Part shown: piece by piece, positions 6,318 to 48,224 of the stretch
Position numbering within the stretch: position 1 is the stretch's first letter
Layout of the letters: every line of letters begins with the position of its first letter
Source of the DNA: Phyllosticta citribraziliensis
Lineage: Eukaryota
Direction: 5' to 3'
NCBI RefSeq assembly: GCF_038025025.1
Contig: NW_027117340.1
Location: forward strand, 744,001 to 808,000
Length of the DNA stretch: 64,000 bases
The notes under the pieces: generated by a model
Database searches by the model: none
What the model was told of the DNA's origin: nothing
Seen by the model: the letters and a program-made list of their open reading frames with translations, nothing else
Program-made: the position numbers and the translations under genes

Positions 6318-6339
6318 CTCCCCTCCCCTCTAGGTCCTT

Positions 6340-14614: not shown

Positions 14615-14629
14615 AGGAGGGGGGGATAG

Positions 14630-14826: not shown

Positions 14827-14831
14827 TAGAT

Positions 14832-18445: not shown

Positions 18446-18733
18446 TATTATAATAGTCTATAATAAGCTAATTAAGGACTACATAGTACTAATTAGTCTA
18501 GCTATAAGTAATTATTATATTCTTAATACCTCTAACTTTATTAATTATATCTTTTATTAATTTAAGGTTATAACTCATCCTATAGACAGGCATATAAGCT
18601 AGATATATATTAATTAGACTAACTACCCTAGCTAGGGCTAGGGGCTAACTATATAGGCTAGGGCCCCTACCTATACTAGGGCTACTGCCCTAAATATATT
18701 AGGTGCTAAGTAAAGATATATAGATATATAATA
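18446..18733 (-). repeat. Putative 3' LTR of C (288 bp)
   Basis: TATTATAATA...TATATAATA termini. It interrupts D gag mid-frame, and its inner flank has the same TAGTAGCT motif as B. No partner LTR in the window. Confidence 0.55.
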
Positions 18734-18781
18734 AAATAGTAGCTATATACTAATAATATCCTTATTATATAATCTAGTTAT

Positions 18782-19184
18782 TGTCACGATAGGTGTACAC
18801 GCGCCTACGCGAGCACCAGGGCCAGTACGGACGAACCCGGCGTCGCGCGGTTATAGGAAGCACGAGCCTCACCTCAGGTAGCAGCCCGCCACAGCTCAGG
18901 CTAAAACCTGCAGGCTGGCACCAGCCACTACAGCCCTAGGCAGATACCATATAATAGCCCATCGACACCTTACCTTTATAACTTACCTAATAATAACTAA
19001 GGACCCTTATATAAAGGATAAGAGGTAGAATAGTATAAAGGAAGGACTAGGAAATATATAGGTAGTAAGTATCTTTTATATTTTATTCTTTTAACTTATT
19101 ATATTTAATTAAGATATATATATATTCTCTAGTAGTTTACCTTTAGCCCTTACCTATATAATAAGAAATCTATAAGTTATAATA
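18782..19184 (+). repeat. 5' LTR of A1 (403 bp, one copy of the internal 20-mer)
   Basis: Matches the four other A LTRs. The first ~200 bp are almost free of RIP. Confidence 0.95.
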
Positions 19185-19185
19185 G

Positions 19186-19196
19186 ATATAAAAGAT
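19186..19196 (+). promoter_or_regulatory. Self-priming (Tf1-type) primer binding site of A
   Basis: ATATAAAAGAT is the exact reverse complement of ATCTTTTATAT at 19071-19081 inside the LTR, downstream of TATA-like sequence. Confidence 0.7.
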
Positions 19197-19491
19197 TATT
19201 CTAAGTTTTAGCTCTATCCTACTTCTTACCTATAAAGGTATTATAATATTTAACCTAAGTGATGTTGTGTGTAGCTATAGTCTTATATAAGACTGCTTAT
19301 TACTTTTCCCTAGTAAACCTAAGTTATCTTTATTAGGCGTATTAGTATTATCTAAGGACTAAGGAGCATTAAGTATATATTAACTATAGAAGTCTTTAGT
19401 TAAGGCTATAGGGTAGTATATAAATATTTAGGAGGTATCCTATCTATAACCTGCTTAAGGGACATTCTAAGTAGAAGACTATAAAGATAGT

Positions 19492-20919
19492 ATGGCTAAG
19501 AATAAAGCTAATATATCTAGTACTACTAAAGGTGTTAGTACTAGTTAATTAACTTAATAAGATTTGCGTGAAGGGACTAAAGATTTATATAATACTAGAT
19601 ACTTATTAAATAATAATAAGAGAGGACCTACCCCTATTCTCCTATATAATTTCTACTTAGTTCTAGTAGTAGAGGTGAAAGAATGTACCTAAGACCTAGG
19701 GTTAACTTATATAGTTTAAGCTCTAGTTATAGAGGTATTTATGAAGGTACTACACTTAGATATTAATTAATTTAAATCTGAGATTGTATCCTTAAATAAG
19801 TCTTAAGTGTAGCAGTAACTAAACTATATATGAAGGTAGAACTAGGCTCTTAAGTAAATACTCTTAAACTATACTAATAGGCTTAGGGAAGTTCTAAGGG
19901 AAGGATATATTAGGCCCTCTTTATTATCTTAGTACCTAAGACCTATTACCCTCTCTTAAGATCCTCCTACCTATATAAGGGAAACTACTACTAAAACCTC
20001 TACTTTATCTTTAAGTAGTAAGAAATACTAAAGTAGTAAGGTTCCTAATCCTCCTCTTCTTACTAATAGAGAAGACCCCTTATATAAATACTAGACCCTC
20101 CTTATATAAAATAAAATTAAATAAAACTATAATTACTTTATTAAGGATATAGTAGAGGAGACTAAATAGAATATTATAGGTTATATTATTTCCTATATTA
20201 GTAGAGAAGTCTTATGTTACCTAACTCCTTTTCTTATTTCTTGTATAAAGGCTAATAAAGTTACTCTAGATAAGGATATCTTTAAATTCCTAGATAACCT
20301 CCTCTAGAGTCTATATAAATATAAGGATGTAAAGAAGTAGTTATACTCTCTTATATACTATATTCCTATAGACCTTTAGAAGTTTTAATTAAACTTTATA
20401 TAATTAGCCTTAGATATAGATCTTCCCTAAGAATAGTAGAAAGAGGACTTTTATAATGTAATAGATCCTCTCCTTTAAACCTATATAGTTACTATAGAGT
20501 AAGATAAGGATATTAACTTTTATAAGTACCTCTAATAAGCCTACCCTATTACTTAAAGTCTTAGTAACTACTATTCTAATTATAGAAAACTAATACTTAT
20601 GTTGTGTGAGGATTGAGTAAAGAAGAGATAATAAGAATAAGTAAAGATAACTACCTTAGGTAGTATGAGTACTTTATCTTCTAGTTATGCCTAGGCGCGA
20701 TCTATGTCTAGGGCTCCCTTATATAATATAACCTATAAAGGTAAAGTAGAAGTCTATATAGAGATTAGACTATATAATTACTATAGCTAGTTTAGCTATT
20801 TATGGAGGTAATACCTATAACTAGAGATAAAGGTAATAGAGTTAGTAGAAGAAGAAAGTATAGAAGAAGTCTATATAAATAAAGGAGATTAGTCTTTATT
20901 AGAAAATAATGAGGCCTAG
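19492..20919 (+). pseudogene. gag relic of A1
   Basis: ATG at 19492. CCHC knuckle (de-RIP CNYCGQFGHLWRQCP) near 20772-20815. Confidence 0.85.
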
Positions 20920-23900
20920 GTAAAGTCTCCTACCTTAGGTCTAAACTTAGAGTAATATATATTAAAGGTTCTTGTATAAATCTTAGTTACTTTATTGGAG
21001 GTATACCCTTTACTGTATAAACCTTAATTATATCTAATAGCTATACCTTGGAAATTTGTGCCCTAGCTAATACTAGTACTAGTAGTATAAGTTTTATTTA
21101 CCCTAAGCTACTACTAACTCTCTAGTCTATAGGTACTATAAAAAAGAGAATAATAGGTAAAGGGCTTAATATTACTAGGTTTAACTAATATATAAATAAG
21201 AAAGTTAATTTTTACTTTTATCTTTAACTCTATTTCTAAGATTGAATGGTTTCTACTTATGCTTTTATTTATGATATTGGCTGTAATAATATGATTCTTA
21301 GGTAATAGTTTTTTAACTAGTATAATATTCTTCTAGACTATAAATAATATAAACTAGTCTAGAGATAGCCACTAGTTAACTAATCCTTTTAGTATCTTTT
21401 ATACCTACTAAAAGTCTCTATGTAAAGTAAAGAACTATAGAAAGAATATTAAGTAGATATAGACTGTAGAGATAAAAAATTTAATAAATACCTTCTTCCC
21501 TTAGTATAGGTTATTAAGGGAATTAAATTTTAAAATTAAGATACTTTTAAGATTTCTATCTATGAATTATAACTTGTGCTAATAGAGATCTATACTATTA
21601 ACCTTATATAAGTTTAAGCAGCTCTTAAAGATAAAGAAACTAAGGAATTACTAGCTTCTAAGCTACTAGCTACTTATAAGGAATTTTAAGATATATTTTC
21701 TAAAATAGAGTCTAATAAGCTACTACCATATTATATAGGAGTTAATTATAAAATAACTCTTATATATAATAGTCTACTAGAGCTTCTACTAAGTCCTCTC
21801 TATAGAATGTCTCTGGAGCAGCTTAAGGCTGTAAAAGAGTATATTATTAAGAATATTTAGAAAGGCTTTATTACTAAAAGCTTTACTGCCTATACTTCTC
21901 CTATTCTAGTAGTAAAAAAGCCTAGTAGGGGATAGAGATTCTGTATGGACTACTAATAGCTTAATAAATAAACTACTAAGGATTTATACCCCCTTCCTCT
22001 TATTATAGAGTTGCTTCAGCGCGTTAGAAAGGGCAAAATTTATACTAAGCTTAATATTTAATAAGCTTTCTACTATATTTATCTTACTAAGGATTCTAAA
22101 GATAAGACTACCTTCTATATAAGATATGGCTTATTTAAATACCATATCTTACTATTTAGATTAAGTAATAGACCTATAGCCTTTTAATATTTTATTAACT
22201 AGGTTCTCTTTAAGTATTTAGATGATTTTATTGTGGCTTTTATAGATAATATACTTATTATCTCTAAAGACCCTATAGAGTATGAGGAACAAGTAAAAAA
22301 AGTACTAGTAAGACTATAAAAAGTAGGACTATAGGTGGATTTAAAGAAGAGTAAGTTTTTAGTTACTTATATAAAGTTCCTTAGATATATCATTTCTATA
22401 GAAGGCATTTAAATAGACCTAGATAAGGTAGAACCTATATAAAACTGGCTAATACCTAAAACCCTTAAAGCTCTTTAATCCTTCCTAGGTTTCTATAATT
22501 TCTACTAATAATTTCTCCCTAACTATAGATAAATTAGTTAGCTATTAGAGAAACTATACTCTAAGGTAAAATGGTGATAACTAGGACCCCTAGAAGAAGA
22601 GGTAATTTAATAACTTAAGAAGCTGATATATAGTAATATACTCCTAGCTAATTATGATCCTACTCTTAACACTTATATAGAGACTGATATAAGTAATAGA
22701 GTTACTATAGGTATTTTAATATAGCTCTAATAACCTTTATGTAATTAGAAACTAGTAGTATTCTACTCTAAGGTAATGGCTAATATAGAACTTTATTATG
22801 GAATATCTGATAAAGAACTGCTAGCTATTAAGAATAGACTAGAAGAATGGAGACTAATACTTATTAGCCTTAAAAAACCTTTTCTTGTAATTATAGACTA
22901 TTAGGTATTAGAGTACTACTCTACTAAATAATAACTTAATTAATAATAAGCTAGATAGTCTAAGTTTTTTATAGAGTTTTATATATACTTCTCCTATTAA
23001 CTAGGAAAGGAAAATATTATTACTAATTACCTTACTTAAAAATAAGAAGACCTAAAGACTTAAAAAGAAAAAGTAAAGGCTATATAAGAGATATACCTTA
23101 TCCTACTAGAGACTATTATCTCTCTTTCTATTTTAGAATAAGAACTTCCTCCTCTAGTATTATTTTTAGATAAACTTCTCTATATAAATTAAGAAGATTC
23201 TAAATTAGAACTCTAGAGATAGAAAGCCCTCTTAAAAGACCTTAAATAAAGAAATGGTTAGGAACTAAAGGATGGTCTTTTACTGTAATATAGTACCCTC
23301 TTTATATTAGATTATAATAACCTCCGCGCGAGAATGCTTAATACCTTATATACTACTTATATAACTACTTATCCTAGTATTATAAAGATGTAAAAACTCC
23401 TTAAGTAATATTACTACTAGCTAGCTATAAATTATATAATTAATATTCATGGGTGAGGATGCTATATTTACTACTAAATAAAAGAGTTTTATAATAAAGA
23501 CCTAGGCCTTCTATAACCCCTAGAAATTCCTACTTAACCCTGGCAATACTTAGCCATAGATTTTAAAGAGATGCCTAAGGACTAAAAAGGCTATAATATA
23601 ATTCTAGTTATTATAGACTAGTTAAGTTAAAGAACCTTTAGCTTACCTTATATAAAAAAGATTAATACTAAAGGAGTCTCTAGGCTCTTTTATAAATATA
23701 TTTATTATATTTATAGAAACCCTAAGTCTATCCTATCTAACTGAGGCCCTTAGTTCATCTCAGCATTTATAAATAAATTATATAAGCTAACTAGTATAGA
23801 GTAGTATTTTAACTCATCCTACTACTCTTAAACTAATAGTATTATAGAGATTATTAATTAGTATCTTATATAAAGATTAAGACCTTTTATTAATTACTTT

Positions 23901-24743
23901 TAGAATAATTAGTCTAATTTTCTACTATTAATGGACCTTATACAAGTAATACTTCCCTATAAAGCTACTAGACTTTTACCTTTTAAGATTAAGTTAGGAT
24001 ATTCCCCTTAAATATACTATAACTAGTAATAAAGAACAGAGACCCCCCAGTAACTAGAAAAGATGGCTTGCATAGTAGTATAAATGCTATAAAAGAGAAG
24101 ATAAGAAGCTTTTAAATTTATAAAGAATCTTATTCTTAAATCCTAAGAGTATATATACTAATAAGCTAATAAATACCGTCACGCGCCAGACTTTATAGTT
24201 AGAGATTATATCTATATTAAGAAAATAGGATAGTCTACTAATTAGCTAAACCTTAAATTAGACTTCCCTAATACTAGACCTTTTAAGATTATAGGAATAG
24301 AAGGACCCTCCTATATCCTTAATCTTCCCTTATATATAAAGATGGTTAACCTTTTCTATACTAATAGGCTATATAAGGCTGAAATAGAATAGCTTCCTAG
24401 TTAAGAATATACTAAACTAGAACCTAAGATTATTTAAGATGGGCCTAAGTAGGAAGTAGACTATATTTAAGCTAGTTAAGTCTTATATAGAAAGCTTTAA
24501 TACTAAGTTAAATGGACTAGATATAACTAAGATAACTAGTAGTATAATATAAGTTCTTTTAGTGGCGCACTATAGAAAATTAAAGAATTCTACTTATTAT
24601 ACCCTACTATAGTAGGACTATTAAAAAATCTAGAAAAATAGAAGACTGCCTTCCTCTAAGAAGAACTATAGATTAAAATAGAAAGTAATAATAAAATAAG
24701 TTACTTAGGCCTATAGTAAATATTATAAAGATATAGAAAGTAG
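20920..24743 (+). pseudogene. pol relic of A1 (PR-RT-RH-IN-chromodomain)
   Basis: Protease ALANTST (=ALADTGA) near 21060, RT *RFCMDY near 21935 and FIDN (=FxDD) 22239-22250, RNase H YGISDKELLAI near 22800, integrase PWQYLAIDF near 23540, chromodomain 24450-24600. Confidence 0.92.
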
Positions 24744-24857
24744 ACTAATTAGTTTACTATCTACCCTTATATAAATACTATTAACCTTAACTTCTACTCT
24801 CTAGTCTCTCCTTTTTACTACTTATCCCCTACTTCCCTCTTCTTTACTTTCTACCCT

Positions 24858-26356
24858 TTACTTCTATCCTTTTCCCTTCTTCTTATTATGACTATTATTA
24901 TATAAGATAGTCTCCTCTAGATCCTCTAGCTTATTAGGTAGGATATCCTATTTAGCTAAAGCCTAATTAGTTTAATCCTCTACCCTGGCTTAGTAGTATA
25001 AGTTCTAGAACTCCTCTATATAAATTTTATCTTTATACCTCTTATAATAAGTAGGCAGCTTAGCACCCTTTAAGTTACTAATAGTATAGTTTAAGTTACC
25101 TATACCCTAAAGGCAGTTAGTGCAACAGCCCTATAAGAAACTAGGTAGGTGGTAATAACTAATAAATATATAAGTATTAGTATTATTATAATACTTAGTA
25201 TAGCTAATAGGGTTATTAATTCTAGTATACTAGATAAGAAAAGCATTGCGTAAGCTAGCTTAAGTTTTAACTAATAAGTAGTTAAATTACTAAGTAGAAA
25301 CTATAATATATAAGTAAGGTATACTATTACCTAAGGCTAAGATATATTTAGTATACTCTTATACTTCAGAACTACTAAGGCGTGCCTGTATAGTTAGTTA
25401 GATAAGAATCCCTTATATTAGTAAGATAAACTTACTCGTGCGACACTCTCTATATTCTTATAAGGGATATAAAGTATTGACTTAAAGTCCTACTTAATAG
25501 GCACCTTATTAGAGCTGACTAGTGATGCTATAATGTAAATCTTACTATTACTACTATTATATAAAGCAGTAGGTAATAAGTACTTAGCTACTAGAACCTA
25601 ATAAGCTACAGGATTGCAATAATAGCGCGTATAAGTAGGCTCTTTACCTTCTTCCTCTAAAACAGGCTGTGCGACAGTAAACCAGTAGTAATATAGCATA
25701 ATAGGCTGGTTAGTAGTAGGCTATATAGCTATAGATGATAAACCTTATATAATAACTAATAATGCTAATTAAGTAGAACCTAATACTATAGTATACTATA
25801 GGTAAAGTAATAAGCCTATAGTAGTTCCTGGCTAAATAAGTAAAGCCTGGCCTAACTAAGTATTTATATAAGTATCCTCCTCTATAATTATATCAGTTAG
25901 CAAGACGGGACAATGAAGCAGTAAAACCTAGATATATAATACCACTTAATAGCCTAGATAATAATTAGTAATAGTCTAAAGAGATAGAATTAAAGTTTAC
26001 TCACCTTAGGACTCTATATAATAGCCCTTATAGATACTACTAGCTAAAATAGCTCTCTAAGTAAGTAGTAACTATAACAGATTATAAATAATACTACATA
26101 ATAATAACTTAATACTATGACTCTTATATAATAGTAATAAGTCCTGATAGACTAGACTATAATAAGTAGTAGATGTATTAAGTATATAGTAGCCAGGAAT
26201 ATCTACTTTACTATTAGTAGGGTATAAATTATTTAAATTATTAGAACCTTTATGCGCAATAGTTAGTTTACTAGATTATAGCTAAATTAGACTAGGATAA
26301 CAATATACTTTAATAGGGAGCTTTAGATATAGCTAAGTAAGATAGTAACCTTCTAT
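24858..26356 (-). pseudogene. Antisense intron-containing DUF3716-like cargo gene, A1 copy
   Basis: Reverse complement of 38895-40393. Retains the GTGAGT donor and GCTAAC branch site of intron 1. Confidence 0.75.
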
Positions 26357-26548
26357 AGGTTATGCGGTAAAAGAGATGGTAATAGAAAGAGATGGTATAG
26401 TAATAGACCTAGACTAATAATTATACTTTATAACTATATAGAATGCTTAAATTACTAAATTACTACTATTATATATTATAAGTCTGCGCCTGTATAAGTA
26501 TCTGCAGCTACTAATTCCTATGATTTTAGCTTCTCTTTAGGGGGGGCA

Positions 26549-26971
26549 TATTATAATAGGTATATATGCGCCTATATAAGTACTAGGGCCAGTATAGATA
26601 AACCTAGTGTCGCGCGGTCACAGGAAGTACGAGCCTTACCTTAGGTAGTAGCCTACTATAGCTTAGGCTAAAACCTATAGGCTAGTACTAGCTACTACAG
26701 GCTGGCACCAGCTACTACAGCCCTAGGTAGATACCATATAACAGCCCATTAATACCTCACCTTTATAACTTACCTAATAATAACTAAGGACCCTTATGTA
26801 AAGGATAAGAGGTAGAATAGTATAAAGGAAGGACTAGGAAATATATAGGTAGTAAGTATCTTTTATATTTTATTCTTTTAACTTATTATATTTAATTAAG
26901 ATATATATACATTCTCTAGCAGTTCACCTTTAGCCCTTACCTATATAATGAGAAATCTACAAGTCGTGACA
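26549..26971 (+). repeat. 3' LTR of A1 (423 bp)
   Basis: Direct repeat of the 5' LTR, follows the polypurine tract, ends TCGTGACA. Confidence 0.95.
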
Positions 26972-26976
26972 GTTAT

Positions 26977-28190
26977 CCTCCTATATATAAAACTCTAGTT
27001 TTTCTATTATTCCCTATTATTCTAATACTTCCTAGGGCTAATTATTAGGGGTCTAATATAGAATATTAGTAATACTAATATTAGGGGCTATAAGACCTAT
27101 ATACCTTATAGGGTAATTAGTAGTATAGTTAATATTAGTATTATACTATTATTAATTATTAAGGAGCTTAGTAAGTAGGTTATTCTATATCTTAGAGTTA
27201 ATATTATTATTAGCTAGTAGGATATAGATATACTAAATATTAATATTATAGTCCTCCTAGAAAGTCTAGGGTAGTAGTCTATATATAACTATAGAAGCTA
27301 CCTATACTACTATACTATTACTAATATTAATATTAAAACCCTTAATAAAGGCTTTAGACTTAGTAAGATAGTAGTAGTAGATTAAAGGTATATACCTTAG
27401 GTATATAAGCTACTTATACTTATACTAAAGGGGGTTATAGTTAGGGAGTAGGATAATATAGTAACCTATACTAAGCTTAAATTATAATATAGAAATAATT
27501 ATCTTATTCTAAGAAGCTTAGATAAGGAGACTACCTAGGATTAAGTAAGTAATTATAGTAGGGTCTATAATATTTAATAGTATAGGAATATTATAGTCTA
27601 TCTATAGGGTATAGATCCTAATACCTATAGTTTTAGGGTTTCTTATTATTAGGTAATTATAGATCCTAGTTAGTATAGCTTTATTATTATTAAACCTAAT
27701 AGTAAAGTAGTTATAAGGTACTTTAGTAGTAACTATACCTTAACCTATATAGATAGGGCTACTATTAGCTATATAGTAGGCTTCCTCTTTCTTAAGGGTA
27801 GTAGTAGCTTATATATTAGCTTTATTATTAGTCTACTTATTCTACTAGTATATCTCTTATAATATCTCTTTAGGGATATAATTAATCTAGCTACTATAGA
27901 TACCTAGAATAGCTATAAGGTAGTTAGATTATACTTCTAGGGTATCCTTACTATATATCTTAAGGAAATTAGAGTTATTTATAATTATAATAGTATCCTC
28001 TAGGGTAATATTAGATAAAGTATATAGGTAGTAGATAAAGTCCTTATCTTTTATAGGGATTATTAGGGCCTACTAGTTCTTTCTATTACCTACCTAAAGG
28101 GTATAGTACCTATTACTAATATTATACTCTCTATCCCTTTCTACTAGGTACTTTATAAACTTCTAGAGCTATAGTATTAGGAACTAGTAA
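26977..28190 (-). pseudogene. Third ORF of C, C-terminal half
   Basis: One coding-like frame (FIKYLVERDREY...IPIKDKDFIYYL...LKKEEAYY) continuous across the AAGTT TSD. Aligns by eye with ORF3 of B. Confidence 0.65.
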
Positions 28191-28195
28191 AAGTT

Positions 28196-28368
28196 TATTA
28201 TAAGTTTAGTTGGGACATCTTTTCTCAAGCAAGGATTATCTTCTTATTATTTCTATCTTGGCCCTAGGGCCCTACTTATTCTTATCTACTTACTTATACT
28301 ACTAAGCCTACTAGCTAGTACCTACCTTACTTACCTAAGGTATCCCTAACTATCTATAGACTATAATA
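28196..28368 (-). repeat. 3' LTR of B
   Basis: Direct repeat of 48047-48219. Confidence 0.93.
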
Positions 28369-28509
28369 GTAGTAGCTAAAAAAAGGAGTTATCCTTAACT
28401 TAGAATTTACTATTCTCCTCTACCTATTAAGAAACATCCCCCTCCTAGGATAAGTAAGGAAAGAAAAGGAAAATTAGAAAGAAAGAAATAGGTCTATACT
28501 AGAATATAT

Positions 28510-31440
28510 TTAATTACTAGTATCTCTATCTTTATCTATATTAAACTAGTCCTTACTACCTATTATATTATTATCTTAAGGTAGGGCTAATAACTAGATA
28601 AGGAGGTTTTTCTATATATTAATACTATAACTACTTTTACCTTCTCCTAGTATAGGTATATAATATATAGTAATACCTATATCTATATAGAAATTAGGGT
28701 AAAGGTATCCTAAGGGAATATAGCCTATAAACTAATTAGTAAACCTAATATTAGTATCTAGGAATTATTACTCTAGGCTATCTATATCCTATAATATATA
28801 TAATATAAGTAGTTATAGGGTAAGTAGTCTAGTAACCTATATATATTCTAGAGGGTCCTTCCTAATATATTAGATTAAGTAGTTTAATCCTATATAAAAA
28901 GTAAGGTTATTAACTAATATAGAAGTAATAAACTTATTAGAGATAATTCCTCTAATAATAAGGTATATAGCTTAGTAAGGGTCTATTATAAGGAGTATAG
29001 CTATTAGGTCTATATATTAATAAAGAGAGCCTACTTTACCTAAATTAAGGTATTAATATACTATATAGCTTATTAAGTACTCTAGGGAAGTAGCTATACT
29101 TAGACTAGTAATATTATCTTAATTAGTAGGACTATCCTTAGGGATTAAGAGGTCTTTTATACTAATATTAGATCTAATATACTTATTATTATTATTAGGT
29201 TTACCTAAAAGTAGCTTATCCTAAGTTATAAGTAGGGTATTATTAGTATCTACTATAAATATAGTATAGTTAGGGTAGTCTAGGTAAACCTATAGAGTAA
29301 GCTTATCTAGGCCTTTAGGTTTTATATCCTATAATATTATATCCTTATTAAAAGGGGATATACCTTAAAGTATTTTTATAAGCTCTACCTTATTATTATT
29401 AATAGGACTATTATATTAGTACTAACCTACTCCTACTCTAGGAGTATAGAACCTGGTACCTATAGACTACTTATTCCTATTTTTTATAAGGGTAGTAGTA
29501 AATATATAGAGCTCTACTAGTAGTATATTACCTCTTATTATATAGTCTATTATAAGAGTATAATAGCCTACTCTATCCTATATTTCTTACTTATAAAGGT
29601 ACTACTTTATACCCTTAGGGACTAGGATATCTTTATATATAGAGAAAAGTAGTCTATTATAACTATAAATAGTAAGGCCTCCTATTACCTAAGGGTATAT
29701 CTTATTAATATTAGGGTTACTAGGCTTCTTTCTACTAATATACTTATTATAGCCTTCCCTACTAATAAGTCTATACTATTCTATAAGTATTATATACTAG
29801 ATCTTACTATTCTTATCTTAGTAGTATAAGGCCTATCTATTAGGGTAATAATATAGGTTTAGTCCTCTATCTTTATAATAAAATAACTAGAGTTAGTAGA
29901 GGTTATAAAACTTAAGATCTATTATTACTTAATAAGCTAAGTAGTAGAGGGTACCTATTATTATAGAGGATAGGCTTATACTAGGTAGGGGAAGGTATTA
30001 ATCTTTAATAAATATATCTAAAATATAGTTAATAATAGAAAAGTTACTAGTATCTATAAGGAATATAGTATCCTAGTCCTATTTATACTCTATAAAAGTC
30101 TTAGGGTTATAGAATAGATAGTATATATTTTCCTTTAAGAATAACTAGTCTCCTATTTTACTTTAGGGACTAACTACTACTAGTTTATCTAGTATAATAT
30201 TAGGTATACCCCTTAGTTTCTTTAATTATATAGTAATATTTAGTATACTAGTAGTCTTCCCTATTTTCTTTATCTTTTATAGTATAGCTAATCCTTTAAG
30301 GTCTACCCTTTCTTTTCTCTATCTTAGTATTAGGGTATCTAGGAATTCCTTTCCTAAATCTATATTATTATTAGGAATTTAGGGTATATATTAAATTATA
30401 GTTATAATAATTTTATTAGTATTATAGGAAGTATTAATAAGTTAATAGGTTTACTTTCTAATAGCTAAATTCTAGGCCTATAGATCTATATTAGTAATAT
30501 CTACTATTTTATAACTTACCTTAACCTATAGAGTTACTCTAATTATACTAAAATTAGGAGGTATCTATATTAGGTAAGAAGCTAGTATTCCTATACTAAG
30601 AAGGCTTATAGCTAGGTTAGGGATAAGACTAGATTAAAGTATAATTTCTAATAAGAAGATAGGTATCTACTATCTCTTATCCTTAATATCCTCCTCTAAT
30701 TCTTTAGTAGTAAAGTACTTATACTTATTACTATAATTAGTATTATACTCCCTTATATATATTTCTAGTATACTACTATCTTTATTATCTTAGTAGAAGC
30801 TATAGGTCTAGTATCCTAAGCCTCTAGCCCCTAATATACTATATCCCTATATAGTTATAGAGGTAGAAGGTAGTATATTTATTATTAGTATATCTACTAT
30901 CTATATTATAGTACTAATATATAAAATAGTCTTAAAGGGGTCTACTATCTCTTTATTATTAGTAACTTAGTTTAGTATATCCTATTATAAATACTTACTA
31001 ATATTAGGAGAGAAGTAGTTATTCTATACTTCTAGTTTAGAAATAATATTATTTTACTTAAGAGTAGGTATACTATTACTAGTAGTAGAGGTATTATTTA
31101 GTATTATATCTACTAGGGGAACTATACCTATATTAGGTACTATATTATAGTTATTATATAAAAGGTTTTACTATTCTTATAGGTTAGTAATATTTATTAG
31201 GGTAGTACTAGTAAGTCTATTCCTATTATAGTTTAAAGACTAACTATATTAGTCTCTTAGATAGTTTATATATTTATATTATAGATAAGGTTATATAGTA
31301 AGGTTAGTATAGGGTTATAAGTTAATATCCTATAGGGCCTAGTATTAATTAGGTATATATACTATAGCTAGTATTAGTTACCCTATTAATATATAGCCCT
31401 CTTCTTACTTAGTAATACTTATATATATAAAATATTTTTA
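28510..31440 (-). pseudogene. Third ORF of B (about 900-980 codons, unknown function)
   Basis: One minus frame is coding-like for ~2.9 kb (KYFTTKELEEDIKDKR, DLGKEFLDTL, REGYNKYISRKKP). Its stops are TAA/TAG, compatible with RIP. Confidence 0.7.
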
Positions 31441-31544
31441 ATAGTAATATCCTTATAGGCCTCCTTTTATTAGGAGGTACTTAGGTATACTATATTAGCT
31501 CCCTCTATAAGGTAGGTACTAATTTAGTACTCTTTTCTAGTAGT

Positions 31545-34500
31545 TTAGGGTTTCTTCTCCTTATTCTTTATACCTAGTAGATAACCTTATTACTTTAATA
31601 TTATAGGGATAGCTATTTCTAGTAGTATATATAGTAGTTTATTATATAATAGCTTATTCTATAGTAGTTTATTATATACCTTAGTAGGTAGTAGCTTATC
31701 TATATTATTATTTTCCTTTAGGTCTCTAGGTATAATAGTAGTATATTAAGGTAGTCCTAGTTTCTATTAGGGCCTATACTAGTCTAGCTTTACTATTATC
31801 TCTTTATTTAACCTTATATTATATTCTCTAATAAGATCTATTACTCCCTTTAAATTATCTAAGTTATATTATACTTAATACTATAGCCCCTAGCCTTTCT
31901 AATTAATTAAATATTATAGTTTCCTAGTCCTATAATATTTATACCTATCTACTAAGTATAAGATTTTATACTTAGGTACTAGCTTATTAGTATTAATAAT
32001 AGGTCCTAGCTCTAATATAGTATTATACTTAAAAGGGTTAGGACCCTCCTTTTCCTTTTCTAATTAGGAGATATTAATAACTAGATAAATCCTTAAGCTA
32101 CTAGGGATAGCTAGTTTATAGGCTTATATACTAATTACTTATATTACTTTATAAGGTCTAGTATATATATTCTAAAGTTTCTATAGTAGATTACTATATA
32201 TCTTATATTTATAGTATAACTATAGATATACCTTATCCCCTAGTTTAAACTAGACTAGATAGTACTTATTATTATATTACTCCTTTTATACTACTACTAT
32301 AAAAGTAAGGGCTTCTTAAGCTTTAATATAGTAGTTTAAATAGAGGGTTTTTAAGTCTATATCTTTAATAGATTCTATCTAGTTATACCTATTATCTTAT
32401 AGGTTAAATCTATATAAGATTTTATAGGGGGTATATCCTATTAAGGTATTTTAAGAAGAATTTATAGTCCCTTAAATATAAGGGAGAGTATTTATCTAAC
32501 TCTAATTAGGGTTAGCTATAATAAAGAACTATAGAGTAATTTCTATTATCTAGTTAATATACTTACTTTATCTATCTATCTAGGAATAGTAAGTAGTAGT
32601 AGTATTTAGGTTAATTTTTATTATTTTAAAAATACTACTTATAAATTACCCTAACTAATAGGAGTCCTAGTCTATAATTATAATAGAAGGTAGACCCTAT
32701 CTATATCTATAGAGTTCTTTAAACTATAAACCTCTCTAATTACCTATAGTCTAGGTCTCTTAACTAGGGATTAGTAAGATTACTTTAGAAAATTTATAAA
32801 TTATAATTAAAAGTATATTAAAATCCCCTTTACTATATATAGGTAGCTTAGTAATAAAATTAATATATATAATAAAGAAGGGGACCTTTACTACTATAAT
32901 AGGGACTATTAACCTATTAGGTTTATATTAAGGTATTTAGTTAATATAATAGTTAGGATAGTAATTAATATATACCTATACCTACTAGTATAGGTACCTT
33001 ATATAGTAGTAAGTATAAATATAATCTATATATTAGTCTATACCTTAATAGAAATACTAATTATATACTTATTTAAATACTACTTACTTATAGCTTTAGG
33101 GAATATATAGCTATTCTTACTAGTCTCTTAAGTAGTCTATAAAGTAGATTAGCCCTTTCTATAGAAAGAAGTATAGACTAGGAACTAGTCCTTTATAGGG
33201 GTCCTTATTTTCTTCTATATTATTAAGGGGAATAGGCTCTACTACTATAATAGGGGCCAGTATTACTATAGGTATAGGGTTTATATTAGTAGGTTACTCT
33301 ATAGTTATTATAGGGTTTACTAGCCTATAGTTATATTCCTACTACTACTTAAGGGCCTACTCTAAAATATAGAGTACCTTCACCTATTATATATTAGTAC
33401 TATATACTATATAGAGCTCTTACTTAAATCTATTAAAGAGTTCTACTAATACTATATAGAAGTAAGTAGTAGTATTACTACCTTTTAAGGTATACTAAAC
33501 TAGGTCCTTATTATTAGGGAATTCTATACTATTAAGGGTATTATCTATATCTATAATTACCTTAGATAATAATTAGCTTAGTATATTAGGGATAATATAG
33601 TTCCTCCCTAGCTAGTACTATACCTTTAATAGATACTAGCTTAGATATTAGCTTATATATATTAGATATAGGTTTAGTTACTCTATAAATTAGGAGTTTC
33701 TAAAGTATAGCTAGTATATAATAGTAGTAACTACTAAATAGTTAGTAAATACCTAAGTATCCTTAAAGGCCTATATAAGTATTTATAATTTCTTAATTAT
33801 CTAAATAACTCCTATTATCTTAAGCTTAGTAGTCTAGTACCTTATCTTAGCTCCTAAAAGATACTAGAATAGAAAGGCTATTAATTTAATAGACTACTTT
33901 AAGAAGTCCTTAGCCTTCTTAAGCTAATTTATAGTAGGGTTTTTACCCTCTATATTCTCTATATTTATAGTAGGAGTCTAGTCTTCTATAACTAATTTAA
34001 GATTACCTTTTATATAGTAGGCTATTATACTAAAACCTAACTCTTTACTAGTATCTATATTAATAAAAAGGGGCCTCTTAGGTATATAGTAAAAATACTA
34101 TTATATTTTATAAAGGGTTATTTATATAGCCTTAAATAATACTACTAATACTAGGGAGTCTAGTAGTACCTATACTACTATATATTAGTAGTATACTTAT
34201 TTATCTTTAGGAGTACTTTATAATAGTATAGTTTTTATAGCTTCTAGTAGTTCTACTAGTTATATATAGTAGGGATAGTTATCCTATAGCTAGCTAATAA
34301 GCCCTATAAAGGTTTCTAGTTCTTAGAGGGTCCTTAGGAATTTAAGGTCTTTTAGAGCTTAGATCTTAGCTTCTAATATTATAATACTAAACCTAGATAC
34401 CTACTATTCTAATAGTATAATAGATAGGTATCCTAACTAAGACTTCTTAATACTTAGGCTTATATTTATACTATTAAAGATAGTAAATACCTTTTTAAGG

Positions 34501-37500
34501 TAATCTAGGTATTCTTTTAATATTTTAGAGAAAATAGTAATATTATTAATATATATTTATATAAAAGTATAGTAGTTCTAAAGAAGAGTATTATACTACT
34601 ATTATATATATTATATAGAGTTATAGTATCCTATTAGGGCTATATTTAACTATTTAGTACCCTAGTAAGTAAGTATAATTAGCTTATATTAGTTATTAGG
34701 ATAGATCTACTACTAATAGAAGAAAGAGATAGTATCTACTACTAAGATATAGAGGTAATCCTAGATATTAGAGATAATATTAATAGCTAGGGGGAGTAGC
34801 TATAAGTCCTTTTTACTAATAGTATTAAAGGCTTATATATTTATAACTACTTATCCTTTCTACTCTAGGGTCCTATTCTCTTTAGGGACTAGCTTCTATA
34901 CTATAAATATAAAGAAGTTAAGATAAGTATCTCTATATACCTATTCTACTTTTCCTTATTTATATATAGGGTTAAGTATAGTATCTTAGAATTTATAGTC
35001 CCTTTAGGATATAGGGTATAGTCTTTAGTATTTAAAATATTTATACTAGCCTAGAACTAATAGTATCCTTATCTAATCCTTTTTAGGAACCTTAATAAAT
35101 CCCTTTTAATTATAGAAAAGATCTTAAAACTAATCTACTAGTTTCTAGTATAGTAACTAAACCTTAGGGGTCCTAAATATAGTAATACTATTATTAAGCT
35201 TAGCCTCCTCTATAATAGGTATAGTAGGATTTAAACTAGCTAGGCTATATTCTATATCTATAAAGTAGTATATCCTATTAAATTCTATAGTAATAATACT
35301 ACCTAGCTATATATTCTAGGAGATTATAAGAGACTAATCTAAGTTATTTCTAGTAATAATCTAGTTTATATCTATACTAGTAACTATAGTATAAAGAGTA
35401 CCCCCCTTTTATAGGAAGGGTATAGGATATATAGTTTTATTAGGATAGAACTTATATACTTAGTAAGGGAGGTCTAGTCCTAGGATTTTAATAAGTAGTT
35501 TTATCTAGGACTATAGGGGTATTATTATATTCTTTATAGTATATATATATTAGTAGATAGGAGTTAAAAATAGCTTAGTTATTATACTAGTATTTAGTCC
35601 CTTAGGCCCTATATATAGCTATACTACTTAGTTCTAACTAATATTAATAATTACCCCTTTAGGATATAGGAGGTTATTTCCTATAAATAAAGGGATATTT
35701 AACTTATTAGTTATCTAAGTATAGTAGGGAAGAAAGCTAAGAGCCTATCCTACCTTAGTTTATCTAGATAAATAAAGGGGAAGTATTATATAATTAGTAT
35801 ATTCTATCTTATATCCTACTTTAGTAATAATTATAGGTTTCTTAAATATTATTATCTTAATATTAGGGAGCTTTTCCTTTAAAAATATTCTATTTACTAT
35901 TAAGGATAAGGTACCTATATTAAGATACCTAATATCTATTATTCCTATAGGGGTTAGCCTAAAACTAATCTCTATTAATTAATATTTAGAAAATAGAGGT
36001 AGATTATCCCCTATACTAAGTCCTATAAAGGTTATAGATAACTCTAAGATTAGTACCTTTAATTCTATATTAACTATGGCCTTATCCTTTATCTTCCTAT
36101 ATTTACTATTAACTATATTAAACCCTAATATAGTAAGGTAGACTATTTAGTAATAGTATCCCTAACTAAGTATAGGAGTACCTTACCTATAGTACTATAT
36201 TACCTATACTATAAGGCTAAGAGGAAAGATTAATACCTACTAAAGAGCTATAACTATTAGAGTAAAGATATACTAAGAGGGGATAATATATTACTTAATT
36301 CTATTATTCTAATAGCTTTTAGGTACTAGTTACCTACTAACTAGATAGTACTCTATTTAGGTCCTAAATTCTTAAGTAGCCTAATACTTACTTAATTTAA
36401 ACTATATTTAAAACTATTATCCCTTAGGTACTAGTATAACTTATATTTAGAAGGGAAGCTTATTTAGTAGCTATTATATACTTTTTAGGGATTAAGTACT
36501 ATTATATTATTACTAGGAGTATAGTTAAAAGTATTATCCTAGATAAGTATATATCTATACTAGGAGTAGTAATTAGCTCCTATTATAATTATAGGCTTAC
36601 TATTATTTAACTATAATTTCTCCTTATTAATTATAGGGGTCTCTATACTAGTATCCTTATTACTTTTAGTATCTTTACTTTCCTTATTAGTATCCTTATA
36701 CTTACTTTTAGAGCTATCCTAGGTATAGTATTATATATATATAGTAGGTTTATAATTATAGTTATAGTTATAGTTATAGTTATAATAATCCTTAGGCTTT
36801 AAATAGGACCTAGAACTAGACCCTTTTAGGTTAGGAGTAGGGAGTATACCCTACTTAGGATAGGTTACCTATTTTATATTACTTAGTCTCCTAGTACTTA
36901 TATTATACTAGGATACTAAGTATATTCTATTAGATTAGTTAAAAGGCTAGCTAGTAGTCTATATTAAAGTATATCCCTAATTCTAGCCCTTAGGGAAGAA
37001 TACCTTACTAGTAGTAGTTATATTAAAATATTAGGATAGGTATTCCTAAGTCTACTAGTAACTCTTAATATTCTTAATAAATACTTAAATTATAGTATTT
37101 ACTATAGGTTTAGGGATCTACTACTAGAAGTAAGGGTTAATATATATATAGGTATTAGCTAATTAATTATATATAGTAAGGAAACTAGTAGCTTATCCTA
37201 GATATATATAGGTAATAATAAAGTCCCTTATACTTTTAGTATAGACCTCTAGGAGCCTAAAGTATACTCTATTTAGTACTTTAATAACTTTATATTATAT
37301 TATACTAAAGTCTTTATATAGTAGTAAAGTCTAATTATTAATACTATATCTAATATATATAAAAGCTTAGTCTTCCTCTATAAGTTAGGAGGTATACTAT
37401 ATATTTAATAATCCTTTTAGGTACTTCTATAGGTTAGTATAGATTAGATCTACTCTATAGGTAGTATAAGCTATTAAGGTACTATTAATAAACTACTCTA

Positions 37501-38279: not shown

Positions 38280-38702
38280 TGTCATGACTTACAGATTTCT
38301 TATTACGCAGGTAAGGGCTAAAGGTAAACTACTAGAGAATGCGTATGTGTCTTAATTAAATCTAATAAGTTAAAAGAATAAAATATAAAAGATACTTACT
38401 ACCTATATATTTCCTAGTCCTTCCTTTATACCATTCTACCTCTTATCCTTTATATAAGGGTCCTTAGTCATTATTAGGTAAGTTATAAAGGTAAGGTATT
38501 AATGGGCTATTATATAGTATCTGCCTAGGGCTATAGTAGCTAGTACTAGCCTATAGTGGCTAGTGCTAGCCTATAGGTTTTAGCCTGAGCTATAGCAGGC
38601 TACTACCTAAGGTAAGGCTCGTGCTTCCTATAACTATATAATACCAGGTTTATCCATGCTGGCCCTAGTACTTATATAGGCATATATATGCCTATTATAA
38701 TA
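38280..38702 (-). repeat. 3' LTR of A2
   Basis: Reverse complement of 26549-26971. Confidence 0.95.
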
Positions 38703-38894
38703 TGCCCCCCCTAAAGAGAAGCTGAAATTATAGGAATTAGCAGCTATAGGCACTTATATAGGTATAGACTCATAATATATAATAGTAGTGATTTAGTAAT
38801 TTAAGCGTTCTGTATAGTTATAAAGTATAATTATTAGTCTAGGTCTATTATTATACTATCTCTTTCTATTACCATCTCTTTTACCGCGTGACCT

Positions 38895-40393
38895 ATAGAA
38901 GGTTACTATCTTACTTAGCTATATCTAAAGCTCCCTATTAAAGTATATTATTATCCTAGTCTAATTTAGCTATAATCTGGTAAACTAACTATTACGCGCG
39001 AAGGTTCTAATAATTTAAATAATTTATACCCTACTAATAGTAAAGTAGATATTCCTGGCTACTGTGCGCTTAATATATCTGCTGCTTATTATAGTCTGGT
39101 CTATTAGGACTTATTACTATTATATAAGAGTTATAGTATTAAGTTGTTATTATATAGTGTTATTTATAATCTGTTATAGTTGCCGCTTACTTAGAGAGCT
39201 GTTTTAGCTAGTAGTATCTATAAGGGCTATTATATAGAGTCCTAAGGTAAGTAAACTTTAATTCTATCTCTTTAGACTATTACTAATTATTATCTAGGCT
39301 GTTAAGTGGTATTATATATCTAGGTTTTACTACTTTATTATCCTGTCTTACTAACTAATATAATTGTAGAGGAGGACACTTATATAAATACTTAGTTAGG
39401 CTAGGCTTTACTTATTTAGCCAGGAACTACTATAGGCTTATTACTTTACCTATAGTGTGCTATAGTATTAGGTTCTGCTTAATTAGTATTATTAGTTATT
39501 ATATAAGGTTTATTATCTGCAGCTGTATAGCCTACTACTAACTAGCCTATTATACTATATTACTACTGGTTTACTGTCGCACAGCCTATTTCAGAGGAAG
39601 AAGGTAAAGAGCCTACTTATATATACTATTATTATAATCCTGTAGCTTATTAGGTTCTAGTAGCTAAGTACTTATTACCTACTACTTTATATAATAGTAG
39701 TAATAGTAAGATTCGCGTCATAGTGTTGCTAGTTAGCTCTAATAAGGTGCCTATTAAGTGGGACTTTAAGTTAATACTTTATATCCCTTATAAGAATATA
39801 GAGAGTGTCGCGCGAGTAAGTTTATCTTACTAATATAAGGGATTCTTATCTAACTAACTATGTAGGTGCGCCTTAGTAGTTCTAAAGTATAAGAGTATAC
39901 TAAATATATCTTGGCCTTAGGTAATAGTATACCTTACTTGTATATTATAGTTTCTACTTAGTAATTTAACTACTTATTAGTTAAAACTTAAGCTAGCTTA
40001 TATAATGCTTTTCTTATCTAGTACACTAGAATTAATAACCCTATTAGCTATACTAAGTATTGCGATAATACTAATACTTATATATTTATTAGTTATTACT
40101 ACCTACCTAGTTTCTTATAGGGCTGTTGTGCTAACTACCTTTAGGGTATAGGTAACTTAGACTGTACTATTAGTAACTTAAAGGGTGCTAAGCTGCCTGC
40201 TTATTATAAGAGGTATAAAGATAAAATTTATATAGAGGAGTTCTAGAACTTGTACTACTAAGCCAGGGTAGAGGATTAAACTAATTAGGCTTTAGCTAAG
40301 TAGGATATCCTACCTAATAAGCTAGAGGATCTAGAGGAGACTATCTTATATAATAATAGTTATAATAAGAAGAAGGGAAAAAGATAGAAGTAA
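38895..40393 (+). pseudogene. Antisense cargo gene of A2: 3 exons (about 38895-39246, 39370-39815, 39866-40393), about 440 aa, C-terminal DUF3716-like CANC domain
   Basis: Introns 39247-39369 and 39816-39865 have GTRAGT donor, CTAAC branch and YAG acceptor, and splicing keeps the frame. De-RIP reading RNAFLIQYTG...CxxC...RAF.SC.HLPGF..GCCANCL.G....C. The start is uncertain. Confidence 0.78.
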
Positions 40394-40510
40394 AGGGTAG
40401 AAAGTAAAGAAGAGGGAAGTAGGGGATAAGTAGTAAAAAGGAGAGACTAGAGAGTAGAAGTTAAGGTTAATAGTATTTATATAAGGGTAGATAGTAAACT
40501 AATTAGTCTA

Positions 40511-45759: not shown

Positions 45760-46066
45760 ACTATCTTTATAGTCTTCTACTTAGAATGTCCCTTAAGTAG
45801 GTTATAGATGGGATACCTCCTAAATATTTATATACTACCCTATAGCCTTAACTAAAGACTTCTATAGTTAATATATACTTAATACTCCTTAGTCCTTAGA
45901 TAATACTGATGCGCCTAATAAAGATAACTTAGGTTTACTAGGGAAAAGTAATAAGTAGTCTTATATAAGACTATAGCTATATATAATATTGCTTAGGTTA
46001 AATATTATAATACCTTTATAGGTAAGAAGTAGGATAGAGCTAAAACTTAGAATGATCTTTTATATC

Positions 46067-46489
46067 TATTATAACTTATAGATTTCTCATTATATAGGTA
46101 AGGGCTAAAGGTAAACTACTAGAGAATATATATATATCTTAATTAAATCTAATAAGTTAAAAGAATAAAATATAAAAGATACTTATTACCTATATATTTC
46201 CTAGTCCTTCCTTTATACTATTCTACCTCTTATCCTTTATATAAGGGTCCTTGGTTATTATTAGGTAAGTTATAAAGGTGAGGTGTTAATGGGCTGTTAT
46301 ATAGTATCTACCTAGGGCTGTAGTGGCTGGTGCTAGCCTATAGTGGCTAGTACTAGCCTATAGGTTTTGGCCTAAGCTATAGTGGGCTGCTACCTAAGGT
46401 GAGGCTTATGCTTCCTATAACCGCGCGACGCTAGGTTTGTCCGTACTGGCCCTAGTGCTCGCATAGGCGCGTGTATGCCTATCGTGACA
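46067..46489 (-). repeat. 5' LTR of A2
   Basis: Direct repeat of 38280-38702, ends ATCGTGACA. Confidence 0.95.
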
Positions 46490-46494
46490 GTTAA

Positions 46495-47940: not shown

Positions 47941-48046
47941 AGAAGTAGACTTATAGTATTTATATATTAGTAGTAATAAAGGTCCTAGATATAGAGGGGA
48001 TACTATAGTAAAAGGAAGTACTATAGTACTTTTAGCTACTAAAAAA

Positions 48047-48219
48047 TATTATAAGTTCAGTTAGGATATCTTTTCTTAAATAAGGATTATCTTCTTATTA
48101 TTTCTATCTTAGCCCTAGGGCCCTACTTATTCTCATCTACTTACTTATACTACTAAGCCTACTAGCTAGTACCTACCTTGCTCATCTAAGGCGTCCCCAA
48201 CCATCTGCGGACTACGACA
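48047..48219 (-). repeat. 5' LTR of B
   Basis: Direct repeat of 28196-28368. The outer end is un-RIPed (...ACTACGACA). Confidence 0.93.
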
Positions 48220-48224
48220 AAGTT

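What the first reader, a model, noticed from the sequence alone, without database searches (positions are those of the whole stretch)
28510..31440. Large third ORF after pol is shared by the divergent elements B and C
Seen: B has a ~2.9-kb sense coding-like frame between pol and the 3' LTR, where retroviruses carry env. C has a ~2.6-kb one split by insertions (49552-48225, 28190-26977, to about 18750). The RIPed translations align in order by eye: YLFYNPKTFIEYK vs YLFYRD*GY**FLDYK; IDLIAILLIIDPY*AIYLII vs IDYNIPILLNIIDPTIITYLIL; SNKFITSIL vs S*NKIIISIL; KDPLEY vs YNPL*Y; DTNIRFT...GYLYPNF vs NTNINYT...GLIAPNI. Inference: a conserved accessory protein of unknown function. With the odd primer sites and C2H2 gag, it may define an under-described Gypsy lineage. 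Caveat: RIP biases translations toward I/Y/N/L and inflates similarity.
Basis: partly seen in the sequence, partly recalled or inferred. Interest (0 to 1): 0.8.

Follow-up and report, generated by a model that had tools for sequence, protein, structure and literature searches.

The report
RIP-killed third ORF in fungal Gypsy
Two related, mutation-wrecked fungal Gypsy retrotransposons each carry, after pol, the dead remains of a large extra gene that matches nothing known, though the damage is too heavy for that blank to mean much.

Summary
The window is a nest of LTR retrotransposons mutated to saturation by RIP. In the ORF3 stretch 0 CpA and 1 TpG remain in 2,841 nt.

Element B lies on the minus strand. 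Its LTRs are at 28169-28378 and 48021-48229, and it measures about 11.85 kb once a nested 8.2-kb element is removed. Between the end of pol (~31650) and the 3' LTR it holds one sense frame, about 31200/31040 to 28530, with the codon usage and periodicity of RIPed coding DNA. The counterpart in element C shows the same signal. B and the 8.2-kb element have split it.

Only the C-terminal ~480 codons of B and C align. They score above all shuffles and above all real RIPed controls, and the two C pieces map to adjacent parts of B. The N-terminal halves do not align.

Pfam, exhaustive phmmer, PDB, metagenome and viral contig scans and AlphaFold2 all gave nothing. RIPed pol is itself nearly invisible to these tools, so these negatives are weak.

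Verdict: a real, decayed third ORF of a Gypsy lineage. Its function is unknown and its novelty is unproven.

The parts
28169..28378 (-). Element B 3' LTR, about 210 bp. It starts TAGCTAC... at 28378.
   Evidence: Self-blastn pairs 28169-28363 with 48021-48214 at 86%. Alignment A1 gives the ends.
28379..28529 (-). Spacer between the end of the ORF3 frame and the 3' LTR. It holds purine-rich tracts that could be the polypurine tract.
   Evidence: The codon-model signal ends at about 28530. Sequence read.
28530..31200 (-). Element B third ORF relic, with codon starts at 31800-3k. It covers about 840-890 codons. 7.7% of its codons are stops, and it has no Met, Trp, Cys, Gln or His codons left.
   Evidence: Stops by frame, periodicity, codon model, composition, RIP indices.
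28588..30027 (-). Part of B ORF3 that is demonstrably homologous to element C (480 codons).
   Evidence: Smith-Waterman scores 109 and 96 exceed all real RIPed controls. The two C pieces map to adjacent parts of B: B residue 632, then 646.
31201..31650 (-). Gap between pol and ORF3 with no frame preferred. A small tandem repeat (period 15/27) lies at 31628-31705.
   Evidence: Periodicity over 31800-31100 gives p=0.09. Fine scan. Tandem repeats.
31800..36020 (-). Element B pol (RT to integrase, then a chromodomain-like tail). Its frame is one base off the ORF3 frame. The Tf2-1-type SH3 domain is at 32055-32240.
   Evidence: Pfam SH3_Tf2-1, E 3.7e-7. The eight weak hits listed are retroelement polyproteins by their precomputed Pfam domains, seven of them with Ty3/Gypsy-type domain sets. 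The codon model picks this frame in every window.
48021..48229 (-). Element B 5' LTR.
38281..46489 (.). Copy 2 of the 8.2-kb element A, nested in B. It is flanked by GTTAA on both sides.
48749..49603 (-). Element C ORF3, upstream part (frame 49603-3k). It is not alignable with B.
   Evidence: Codon model gives +7.3 bits per 100 codons and this frame is the best of six in 2 of 2 windows.. Smith-Waterman z 0.1.
48231..48746 (-). Element C ORF3, middle part (frame 48746-3k). It is homologous to B 30027-29544 and ends at the B insertion. The frame changes within 48750-48550.
26972..28168 (-). Element C ORF3, downstream part, lying between the B insertion and the A insertion. It is homologous to B 29502-28587.
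   Evidence: Codon model gives +8.8 bits per 100 codons and this frame is the best of six in 3 of 3 windows..
18782..26971 (.). Copy 1 of element A (TG...CA ends). It is inserted just upstream of C's 3' LTR, with a perfect 5-bp target duplication at 18777-18781 and 26972-26976.
18700..18745 (-). Start of element C's presumed 3' LTR. It reads TAGCTACTA from 18745 downward, like the start of B's LTR.
   Evidence: Sequence read. C's other LTR lies outside the window, so this is not confirmed by a pair.

Best explanation
The stretch is the dead relic of a third, sense-strand protein-coding gene of about 850-900 codons. That gene belonged to the common ancestor of two related Ty3/Gypsy retrotransposon families, B and C, whose integrase carries a Tf2-type SH3 domain and probably a chromodomain.

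The gene sat 300-450 nt behind pol, in another frame, and ended about 150 nt before the 3' LTR. That is the place where retroviruses and some Gypsy elements carry env. It was copied along with the element in its genomic RNA.

The gene diverged much faster than pol, and only its C-terminal half is still recognisably shared. RIP later destroyed every copy seen here: all Gln and Trp codons became stops, and all Met, Cys and His codons are gone.

**Shown:** the coding-type frame in both elements, the homology of the C-terminal half, the element anatomy and the RIP saturation.

**Inferred:**
- That it was translated. If it was, the route was most likely a spliced or internally started sub-genomic RNA, as for env-type third ORFs.
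- That it served the element as an accessory protein and was not a passive passenger.

Its biochemical role could not be read from this DNA.
For: **1. One consistent sense frame.**
- Stops per 150 codons are 7-12 in this frame against 16-30 in the other two, across six windows.
- Base composition by codon position matches that of pol. First-position purine is 0.62 against 0.57 in pol, with G lowest at position 2 and T highest at position 3. Periodicity p is 1e-13.

**2. Cross-trained codon model (bits per 100 codons).**
- Held-out B pol: +5.6, best of six frames in 11 of 13 windows.
- B ORF3: +2.7, best in 7 of 9 windows.
- C ORF3 pieces: +7.3 (2 of 2) and +8.8 (3 of 3).
- C pol: +4.5 (11 of 13).

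**3. Stop density fits a formerly open frame.** The stop fraction is 7.7% in ORF3 and 9.7% in pol, a frame that was certainly open once. Both have 0.0% Met, Trp, Cys, Gln and His.

**4. Homology of the C-terminal half.** Scores of 109 and 96 beat 0 of 270 and 0 of 138 real RIPed controls. The two C pieces flanking the B insertion align to adjacent parts of B. For the C1 block the signal appears only in this frame pair: the other two collinear frame pairs give z -0.6 and -0.2.

**5. Selection signature in one block.** Transversions per site by codon position are 0.31/0.28/0.43 in the C2 block (p=3e-4). This has the same direction as pol, 0.16/0.11/0.36.

**6. Not a separate insertion.** No terminal repeats bound the stretch.

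**7. Other copies exist.** Contigs from 3 studies cover the stretch at 80-99% likeness: 60 contigs laid, with depth in 25, 28, 14 and 24 of 30 bins. Their differences are mostly transitions in both directions, as expected for independently RIPed copies of one family.
Against: - No protein relative was found by any search.
- The N-terminal halves of B and C do not align.
- tblastn with composition correction finds no B-C match in this region at E up to 10.
- DNA-level local alignment is barely above controls (33.7 against a maximum of 32.0, n=45) and is not collinear.
- The C1 block shows no third-position excess of transversions.
- For the C2 block, a different frame pair scored as well as the proposed one (z 3.7 against 2.1-2.5).
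- Stop counts alone do not tell the strand. Two plus-strand frames have 93 and 95 stops over 28400-31600, against 93 for the sense frame over the slightly longer 28300-31700. Only the codon model favours the sense strand.
- B's codon-model score is about half that of pol.
- C's frame changes once.
- No start codon can be placed, because RIP has turned every ATG into ATA.
Confidence: 0.65

Rival explanations
1. A captured passenger. The stretch would be a host gene, or a piece of another mobile element, that entered the 3' end of the ancestral element before B and C split. It has since been carried along without serving the element.
For: - It is coding-like but far more diverged than pol.
- The N-terminal halves are not alignable and differ in length by about 300 nt.
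- Capture of additional ORFs by LTR retrotransposons is on record for bdelloid rotifers (PMC5408684, abstract seen in the listing).
Against: - It is kept collinearly, at full length, in two families whose pol is only 66.6% identical.
- The C2 block shows the third-position transversion excess expected under selection.
- It has no termini of its own.
- It matches no transposase or host family. That search was insensitive, however.
Confidence: 0.2
2. A non-coding 3' region. It would be a long untranslated tail of the element whose three-base periodicity and low stop count are side effects of RIP or of chance.
For: - No open frame, no start codon and no protein relative were found.
- DNA-level and composition-corrected comparisons of B with C are at noise level.
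- Stop counts are equally low in two antisense frames.
Against: - The periodicity is as strong as in pol and has the same codon-position pattern.
- A model trained on the other element's pol picks a single sense frame over about 2.6 kb in B and in all three C pieces.
- The neighbouring 700 nt (31800-31100), which underwent the same RIP, show no periodicity (p=0.09).
- Translated similarity exceeds all 408 real RIPed controls.
Confidence: 0.1
3. A C-terminal extension of pol. The stretch would be extra polyprotein domains reached by a frameshift or read-through, not a separate gene.
For: The frame is offset by one base from pol, as in the gag-pol frameshifts of retroelements. That comparison rests on established knowledge.
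Against: Roughly 300-600 nt between the last pol signal (~31650) and the first ORF3 signal (~31200-31040) favour no frame and hold a tandem repeat. C has a similar gap at 50050-49600.
Confidence: 0.05

Closest known systems
RLG_Rolly of Leptosphaeria maculans
   Same: It is a Ty3/Gypsy element, listed at 11,875 bp with 235-bp LTRs, in a table of repeats of a RIP-affected genome (PMC3105345, Table 4, passage seen). B measures about 11,847 bp with LTRs of about 210 bp.
   Different: - I could not make a sequence comparison, because no Repbase copy was available.
- The organism of the window is unknown to me.
- The 8.2-kb element A, with about 410-bp LTRs, matches no size in that table.
- The passages I saw say nothing about what Rolly's extra 4-5 kb encode.
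Boty / BcGypsy1 of Botrytis cinerea with its additional ORF 'brtn'
   Same: It is a fungal Gypsy element reported with an additional ORF besides gag and pol. Other B. cinerea families are also drawn with additional predicted ORFs (bioRxiv 10.1101/2021.04.13.439636, methods passage seen).
   Different: I had no sequence to compare. The size and position of brtn were not in the passages I saw, and the figure and supplements were not readable here.
env-carrying Ty3/Gypsy elements (insect errantiviruses; plant Athila-type elements)
   Same: They carry a third ORF between pol and the 3' LTR. The errantivirus env comes from the abstract of PMC13524379, seen in the listing. The Athila case is recalled.
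   Different: - There is no similarity to any fusion glycoprotein.
- Signal peptide, membrane anchor and heptad repeats cannot be judged, because RIP turns Ser, Pro, Thr and Ala codons into Leu, Ile and Val codons.
- I know of no env in a fungal element. My three literature searches found none.
Bdelloid rotifer LTR retrotransposons with captured extra ORFs
   Same: Accessory ORFs are added to gag-pol elements and shared between families (PMC5408684, abstract seen in the listing).
   Different: The host kingdom differs. Those ORFs have recognisable domains, and this one has none that can be detected.

Membership tests
Ty3/Gypsy LTR retrotransposon (element B as a whole) | A pair of direct long terminal repeats flanking the internal region | tested here: met
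   28169-28378 and 48021-48229, 86% identical over 195 bp.
Ty3/Gypsy LTR retrotransposon (element B as a whole) | pol with reverse transcriptase, RNase H, then integrase | tested here: inconclusive
   Pfam sees only the integrase-associated SH3_Tf2-1 domain (30.6 and 29.9 bits against a cut-off of 30). The 8 weak protein hits (best E 5e-16) carry RVT_1 and RNase H domains, and five of them carry rve, in their precomputed Pfam lists. Domain order in B itself was not resolved.
Ty3/Gypsy LTR retrotransposon (element B as a whole) | Target-site duplication of 4-6 bp | tested here: inconclusive
   No clean duplication appears at the ends as aligned. TTAGA/CTAGA fits only if each LTR end is moved 2 nt outward, at the cost of one transversion.
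Chromovirus clade of Ty3/Gypsy | Chromodomain at the C-terminus of integrase | tested here: inconclusive
   Pfam Chromo scores E 0.25, 11.7 bits, against a cut-off of 25.1 in C. The matching B stretch looks alike by eye and got no Pfam hit.
Ty3/Gypsy elements with an env-type third ORF | A long ORF between pol and the 3' LTR on the sense strand | tested here: met
   The ORF survives only as a relic. The coding-type frame runs from about 31200 to 28530 in B, with a counterpart in C.
Ty3/Gypsy elements with an env-type third ORF | Similarity to a viral fusion or envelope glycoprotein | tested here: inconclusive
   No hit in Pfam, in 1.84 billion representatives, or in PDB. RIPed pol is itself almost undetectable by these tools.
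Ty3/Gypsy elements with an env-type third ORF | Signal peptide, membrane anchor and coiled-coil heptads | not testable with these tools
   RIP saturation has rewritten hydrophobicity and removed all Met, Cys, His, Gln and Trp.
RLG_Rolly family (L. maculans) | Nucleotide similarity to the Rolly reference | not testable with these tools
   No reference sequence was available. Only the size and LTR length are alike.

The most novel reading that the evidence does not exclude
B and C represent a fungal Gypsy lineage, probably chromodomain-bearing, that regularly carries a large (~870-aa), fast-evolving third gene with no relative in current protein databases. That gene would be an element-encoded accessory factor, for example one that handles entry into new nuclei or hyphae or counters host genome defence. 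It would be analogous in position to env but unrelated to it.
Probability: 0.2. Interest if true: 0.6.

Novelty: new variant of a known kind. Interest (0 to 1): 0.35.

Why it matters
Fungal LTR retrotransposons are usually described as gag-pol only. A large third gene shared by two diverged families would add an accessory function to fungal Gypsy biology. It could also explain why some fungal Gypsy families are about 12 kb long.

The copies here are too mutated to say what the gene did. The value of this finding is as a pointer. Intact relatives of this family, if any exist, would be worth finding and folding.

There is also a practical lesson. Sequence searches with RIP-saturated translations are close to blind, so 'no homolog' must not be read as novelty.

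Tried and rejected
**Protein family and structure searches**
- Pfam on all six frames of 28379-31800 at E up to 5: 0 families.
- Pfam on the three C pieces: 0 families.
- Exhaustive phmmer of 1,140 read-through residues against 1.84 billion representatives: 0 hits at E up to 0.001.
- Word-indexed search: 0 of 8,000 candidates at E up to 0.1.
- PDB sequences: two kinase chains at E 0.68 and 0.92, which is noise.
- AlphaFold2 on the B+C alignment: mean pLDDT 28.4, with 0 of 480 residues above 50. I therefore ran no fold search.

**Contig scans**
- Metagenome contigs with ORF3: 363 pattern matches, 0 confirmed.
- Metagenome contigs with the B+C pol alignment: 494 matches, 0 confirmed.
- Viral contigs with the B+C ORF3 alignment: 113 matches, 0 confirmed.

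- The ESM Atlas does not accept a read-through translation. I left it at that.
- No whole genome is held for this window.

**Sequencing runs**
- No RNA holder is listed for the stretch.

**Earlier findings of this scan**
- Four look-ups returned nothing relevant.

**Other checks**
- Internal repeats within ORF3: none, all six quarter-by-quarter comparisons at z 0.4 or below.
- Terminal repeats bounding ORF3: none convincing. The 31-nt inverted pair at 28612/31366 is 77% complementary, and it is one of 26 such pairs in 4.2 kb.
- Frame continuity of C across the B insertion: unresolved, because B's exact ends and duplication are unclear.

**Literature**
- Searches for a described third ORF in fungal Gypsy elements gave only the Botrytis 'brtn' note. 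The passages returned for the words additional, env, unusual, longest and extra in the survey PMC3248453 describe no third-ORF family.
Full report
**Setting.** The whole window is AT-rich, with GC 0.22-0.33 per kb. It has no ORF of 60 aa or more between 20000 and 33000 in any frame. RIP indices are extreme. For the window, TA/AT is 1.79 and (CA+TG)/(AC+GT) is 0.13. In the ORF3 stretch 0 CA and 1 TG remain in 2,841 nt, and in B pol 2 CA and 0 TG remain in 4,021 nt. No genome is held for the window.

**Anatomy.** Self-blastn and end inspection give a nest of elements.
- Element A is 8.2 kb with TG...CA ends and LTRs of about 410 bp. It occurs at three places:
  - 18782-26971, with target duplication GTTAT on the plus strand;
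  - 38281-46489, with duplication GTTAA;
  - 57373 to the window end.
- Element B lies on the minus strand. Its LTRs are at 28169-28378 and 48021-48229 (86% identical). Without the nested A copy it measures about 11,847 bp.
- Element C also lies on the minus strand and is related to B. Their pol regions align at 66.6% DNA identity (32144-35947 with 50505-54368). Their translations are 43-49% identical.
- B sits inside C. One A copy sits just upstream of what looks like C's 3' LTR, which starts TAGCTACTA at about 18745, like B's LTR.
- Pfam recognises only the Tf2-type SH3 domain of integrase in B, at 32055-32240. It gives a sub-threshold chromodomain in C (E 0.25).

**Is there a coding-like frame?** Yes.
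- All 11 peptide strings I searched for lie on the minus strand, in the stated places.
- Stop counts. In the frame with codon starts at 31800-3k, stops number 7-12 per 150 codons in six consecutive windows from 31071 to 28400. The other two sense frames have 16-30.
- Codon-position pattern. Base composition by codon position matches the true pol frame: purine-rich first position, G-poor second, T-rich third. The chi-square for periodicity gives p=1e-13, against 1e-10 for pol and 0.09 for the spacer 31800-31100.
- Three-frame codon model. A model trained only on C pol finds the B pol frame in every window from 36300 to 31800. It then finds the ORF3 frame in 17 of 18 windows from 31200 to 28650.
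- Six-frame codon model, in bits per 100 codons:
  - ORF3 of B scores +2.7 and is best in 7 of 9 windows.
  - Held-out B pol scores +5.6 and is best in 11 of 13 windows.
  - The C pieces score +7.3 and +8.8 and are best in 5 of 5 windows.
- Change points put the B frame between about 31040-31200 and 28530.
- Amino-acid content. The translation has 0.0% Met, Trp, Cys, Gln and His, exactly like pol. Its stop fraction is 7.7%, against 9.7% in pol. That is what a formerly open frame looks like once every CAA, CAG and TGG has been turned into a stop.
- Strand caveat. Stop counts alone do not tell the strand: two plus-strand frames are equally poor in stops. The strand call rests on the codon model.

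**Is it shared by B and C?** Partly.
- blastn stops at the end of pol.
- A global DNA alignment gives 46-56% identity with many gaps in this region, against 52-70% in pol.
- A transition-tolerant local DNA alignment barely exceeds real controls and is not collinear.
- tblastn with composition correction finds nothing.
- Translated Smith-Waterman alignment of the B frame does give a signal:
  - C 48746-48231 scores 109, reached by 0 of 300 shuffles and 0 of 270 real RIPed controls from unrelated elements (maximum 89).
  - C 28168-26972 scores 96, reached by 7 of 300 shuffles and 0 of 138 real controls (maximum 90).
- The two C pieces, separated in the window by the 20-kb B insertion, align to adjacent parts of B: residues 471-632, then 646-951, of the protein that starts at 31440.
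- For the first block the signal exists only in this frame pair. For the second block another frame pair scores as well.
- Transversions, which RIP does not make, were counted by codon position:
  - pol: 0.16/0.11/0.36;
  - second block: 0.31/0.28/0.43 (p=3e-4);
  - first block: 0.41/0.31/0.42, which is no different from spurious alignments.
- The N-terminal halves (B about 31200-30027, C 49603-48749) do not align (z 0.1).
- C's frame changes once, between 48750 and 48550.
  - pairs 2-4 lie in the supported alignment;
  - pair 5 is not significant alone;
  - pair 1 is locally good, but 127 residues off the supported register.

**Is it a separate insertion?** No sign of that. Only short repeats of 71-90% identity, typical of this DNA, occur around it. 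It is collinear in two diverged families. Contigs from three studies' runs cover the stretch and its junctions at 80-99% likeness, with mostly transition differences in both directions. That fits independently RIPed copies of a multi-copy family.

**What is it?** I could not tell. Every search was blank and the AlphaFold2 model is useless (pLDDT 28.4). The calibration matters here:
- The RIPed pol of B (1,407 residues) belongs to one of the largest protein families known. It retrieved only 8 of 7,999 scored candidates, the best at E 5e-16 with 27% identity over 13% of the query.
- Pfam recognised none of RVT_1, RNase H, rve or the integrase zinc domain in either B or C pol. Only SH3_Tf2-1 appeared, at threshold and in B only.

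The blanks therefore exclude a relative as abundant and conserved as pol, and little else.

**Comparison with what is known.**
- RLG_Rolly of L. maculans is listed at 11,875 bp with 235-bp LTRs (PMC3105345, Table 4, passage). That is close to B in size, but no sequence was available and element A fits no family in that table.
- Fungal Gypsy elements with additional ORFs are on record in Botrytis ('brtn' in BcGypsy1; methods passage of the preprint).
- The passages I searched in the survey 'LTR Retrotransposons in Fungi' describe no third-ORF family.
- By position the ORF resembles env of errantiviruses and Athila-type elements. No env feature could be tested.

**Verdict.** The best reading is a RIP-destroyed third ORF of a Gypsy lineage (confidence 0.65). 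It is fast-evolving, and its function is unknown. Whether it is undescribed cannot be decided without TE libraries and fungal genomes.

Noticed in passing
window 18777-18781 / 26972-26976; 38276-38280 / 46490-46494: Two copies of the 8.2-kb element A have perfect 5-bp target duplications (GTTAT and GTTAA). Their TG...CA ends are intact, and the three A copies are 92-94% identical. A is therefore the youngest layer of the nest. All three insertion flanks are similar (a purine-rich run, then TAA), which may reflect a target preference.
   Followed up: partly
window 31628-31705: A small tandem repeat (period 15/27, about 3 copies) lies just after the chromodomain-like end of B pol. It reads as repeated NKLLY in the pol frame.
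   Followed up: no
window 32000-36020 vs 50505-54438: B and C pol translations carry stops at the same aligned positions, for example runs of three. This fits RIP converting the same conserved Gln and Trp codons independently in both elements.
   Followed up: no
window 30120, ~29700 (B); 48458, ~28150 (C): A short motif of the type Y-L-x-x-R-D-x-x-Y turns up twice in each element's ORF3 translation. Quarter-by-quarter self-comparison found no significant internal repeat.
   Followed up: partly
window 1-18000: This stretch holds further repeated elements, with direct repeats at spacings of about 7.2 and 7.8 kb and 66-77% identity. They are unrelated to ORF3 by tblastn. I did not analyse them.
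   Followed up: no
window 28169-28378 and 48021-48229: B's LTRs are short (about 210 bp) and their ends are not a clean TG...CA. The target duplication is ambiguous. A purine-rich tract (GGAGGGGGA) lies about 60 nt upstream of the 3' LTR, not directly against it.
   Followed up: partly
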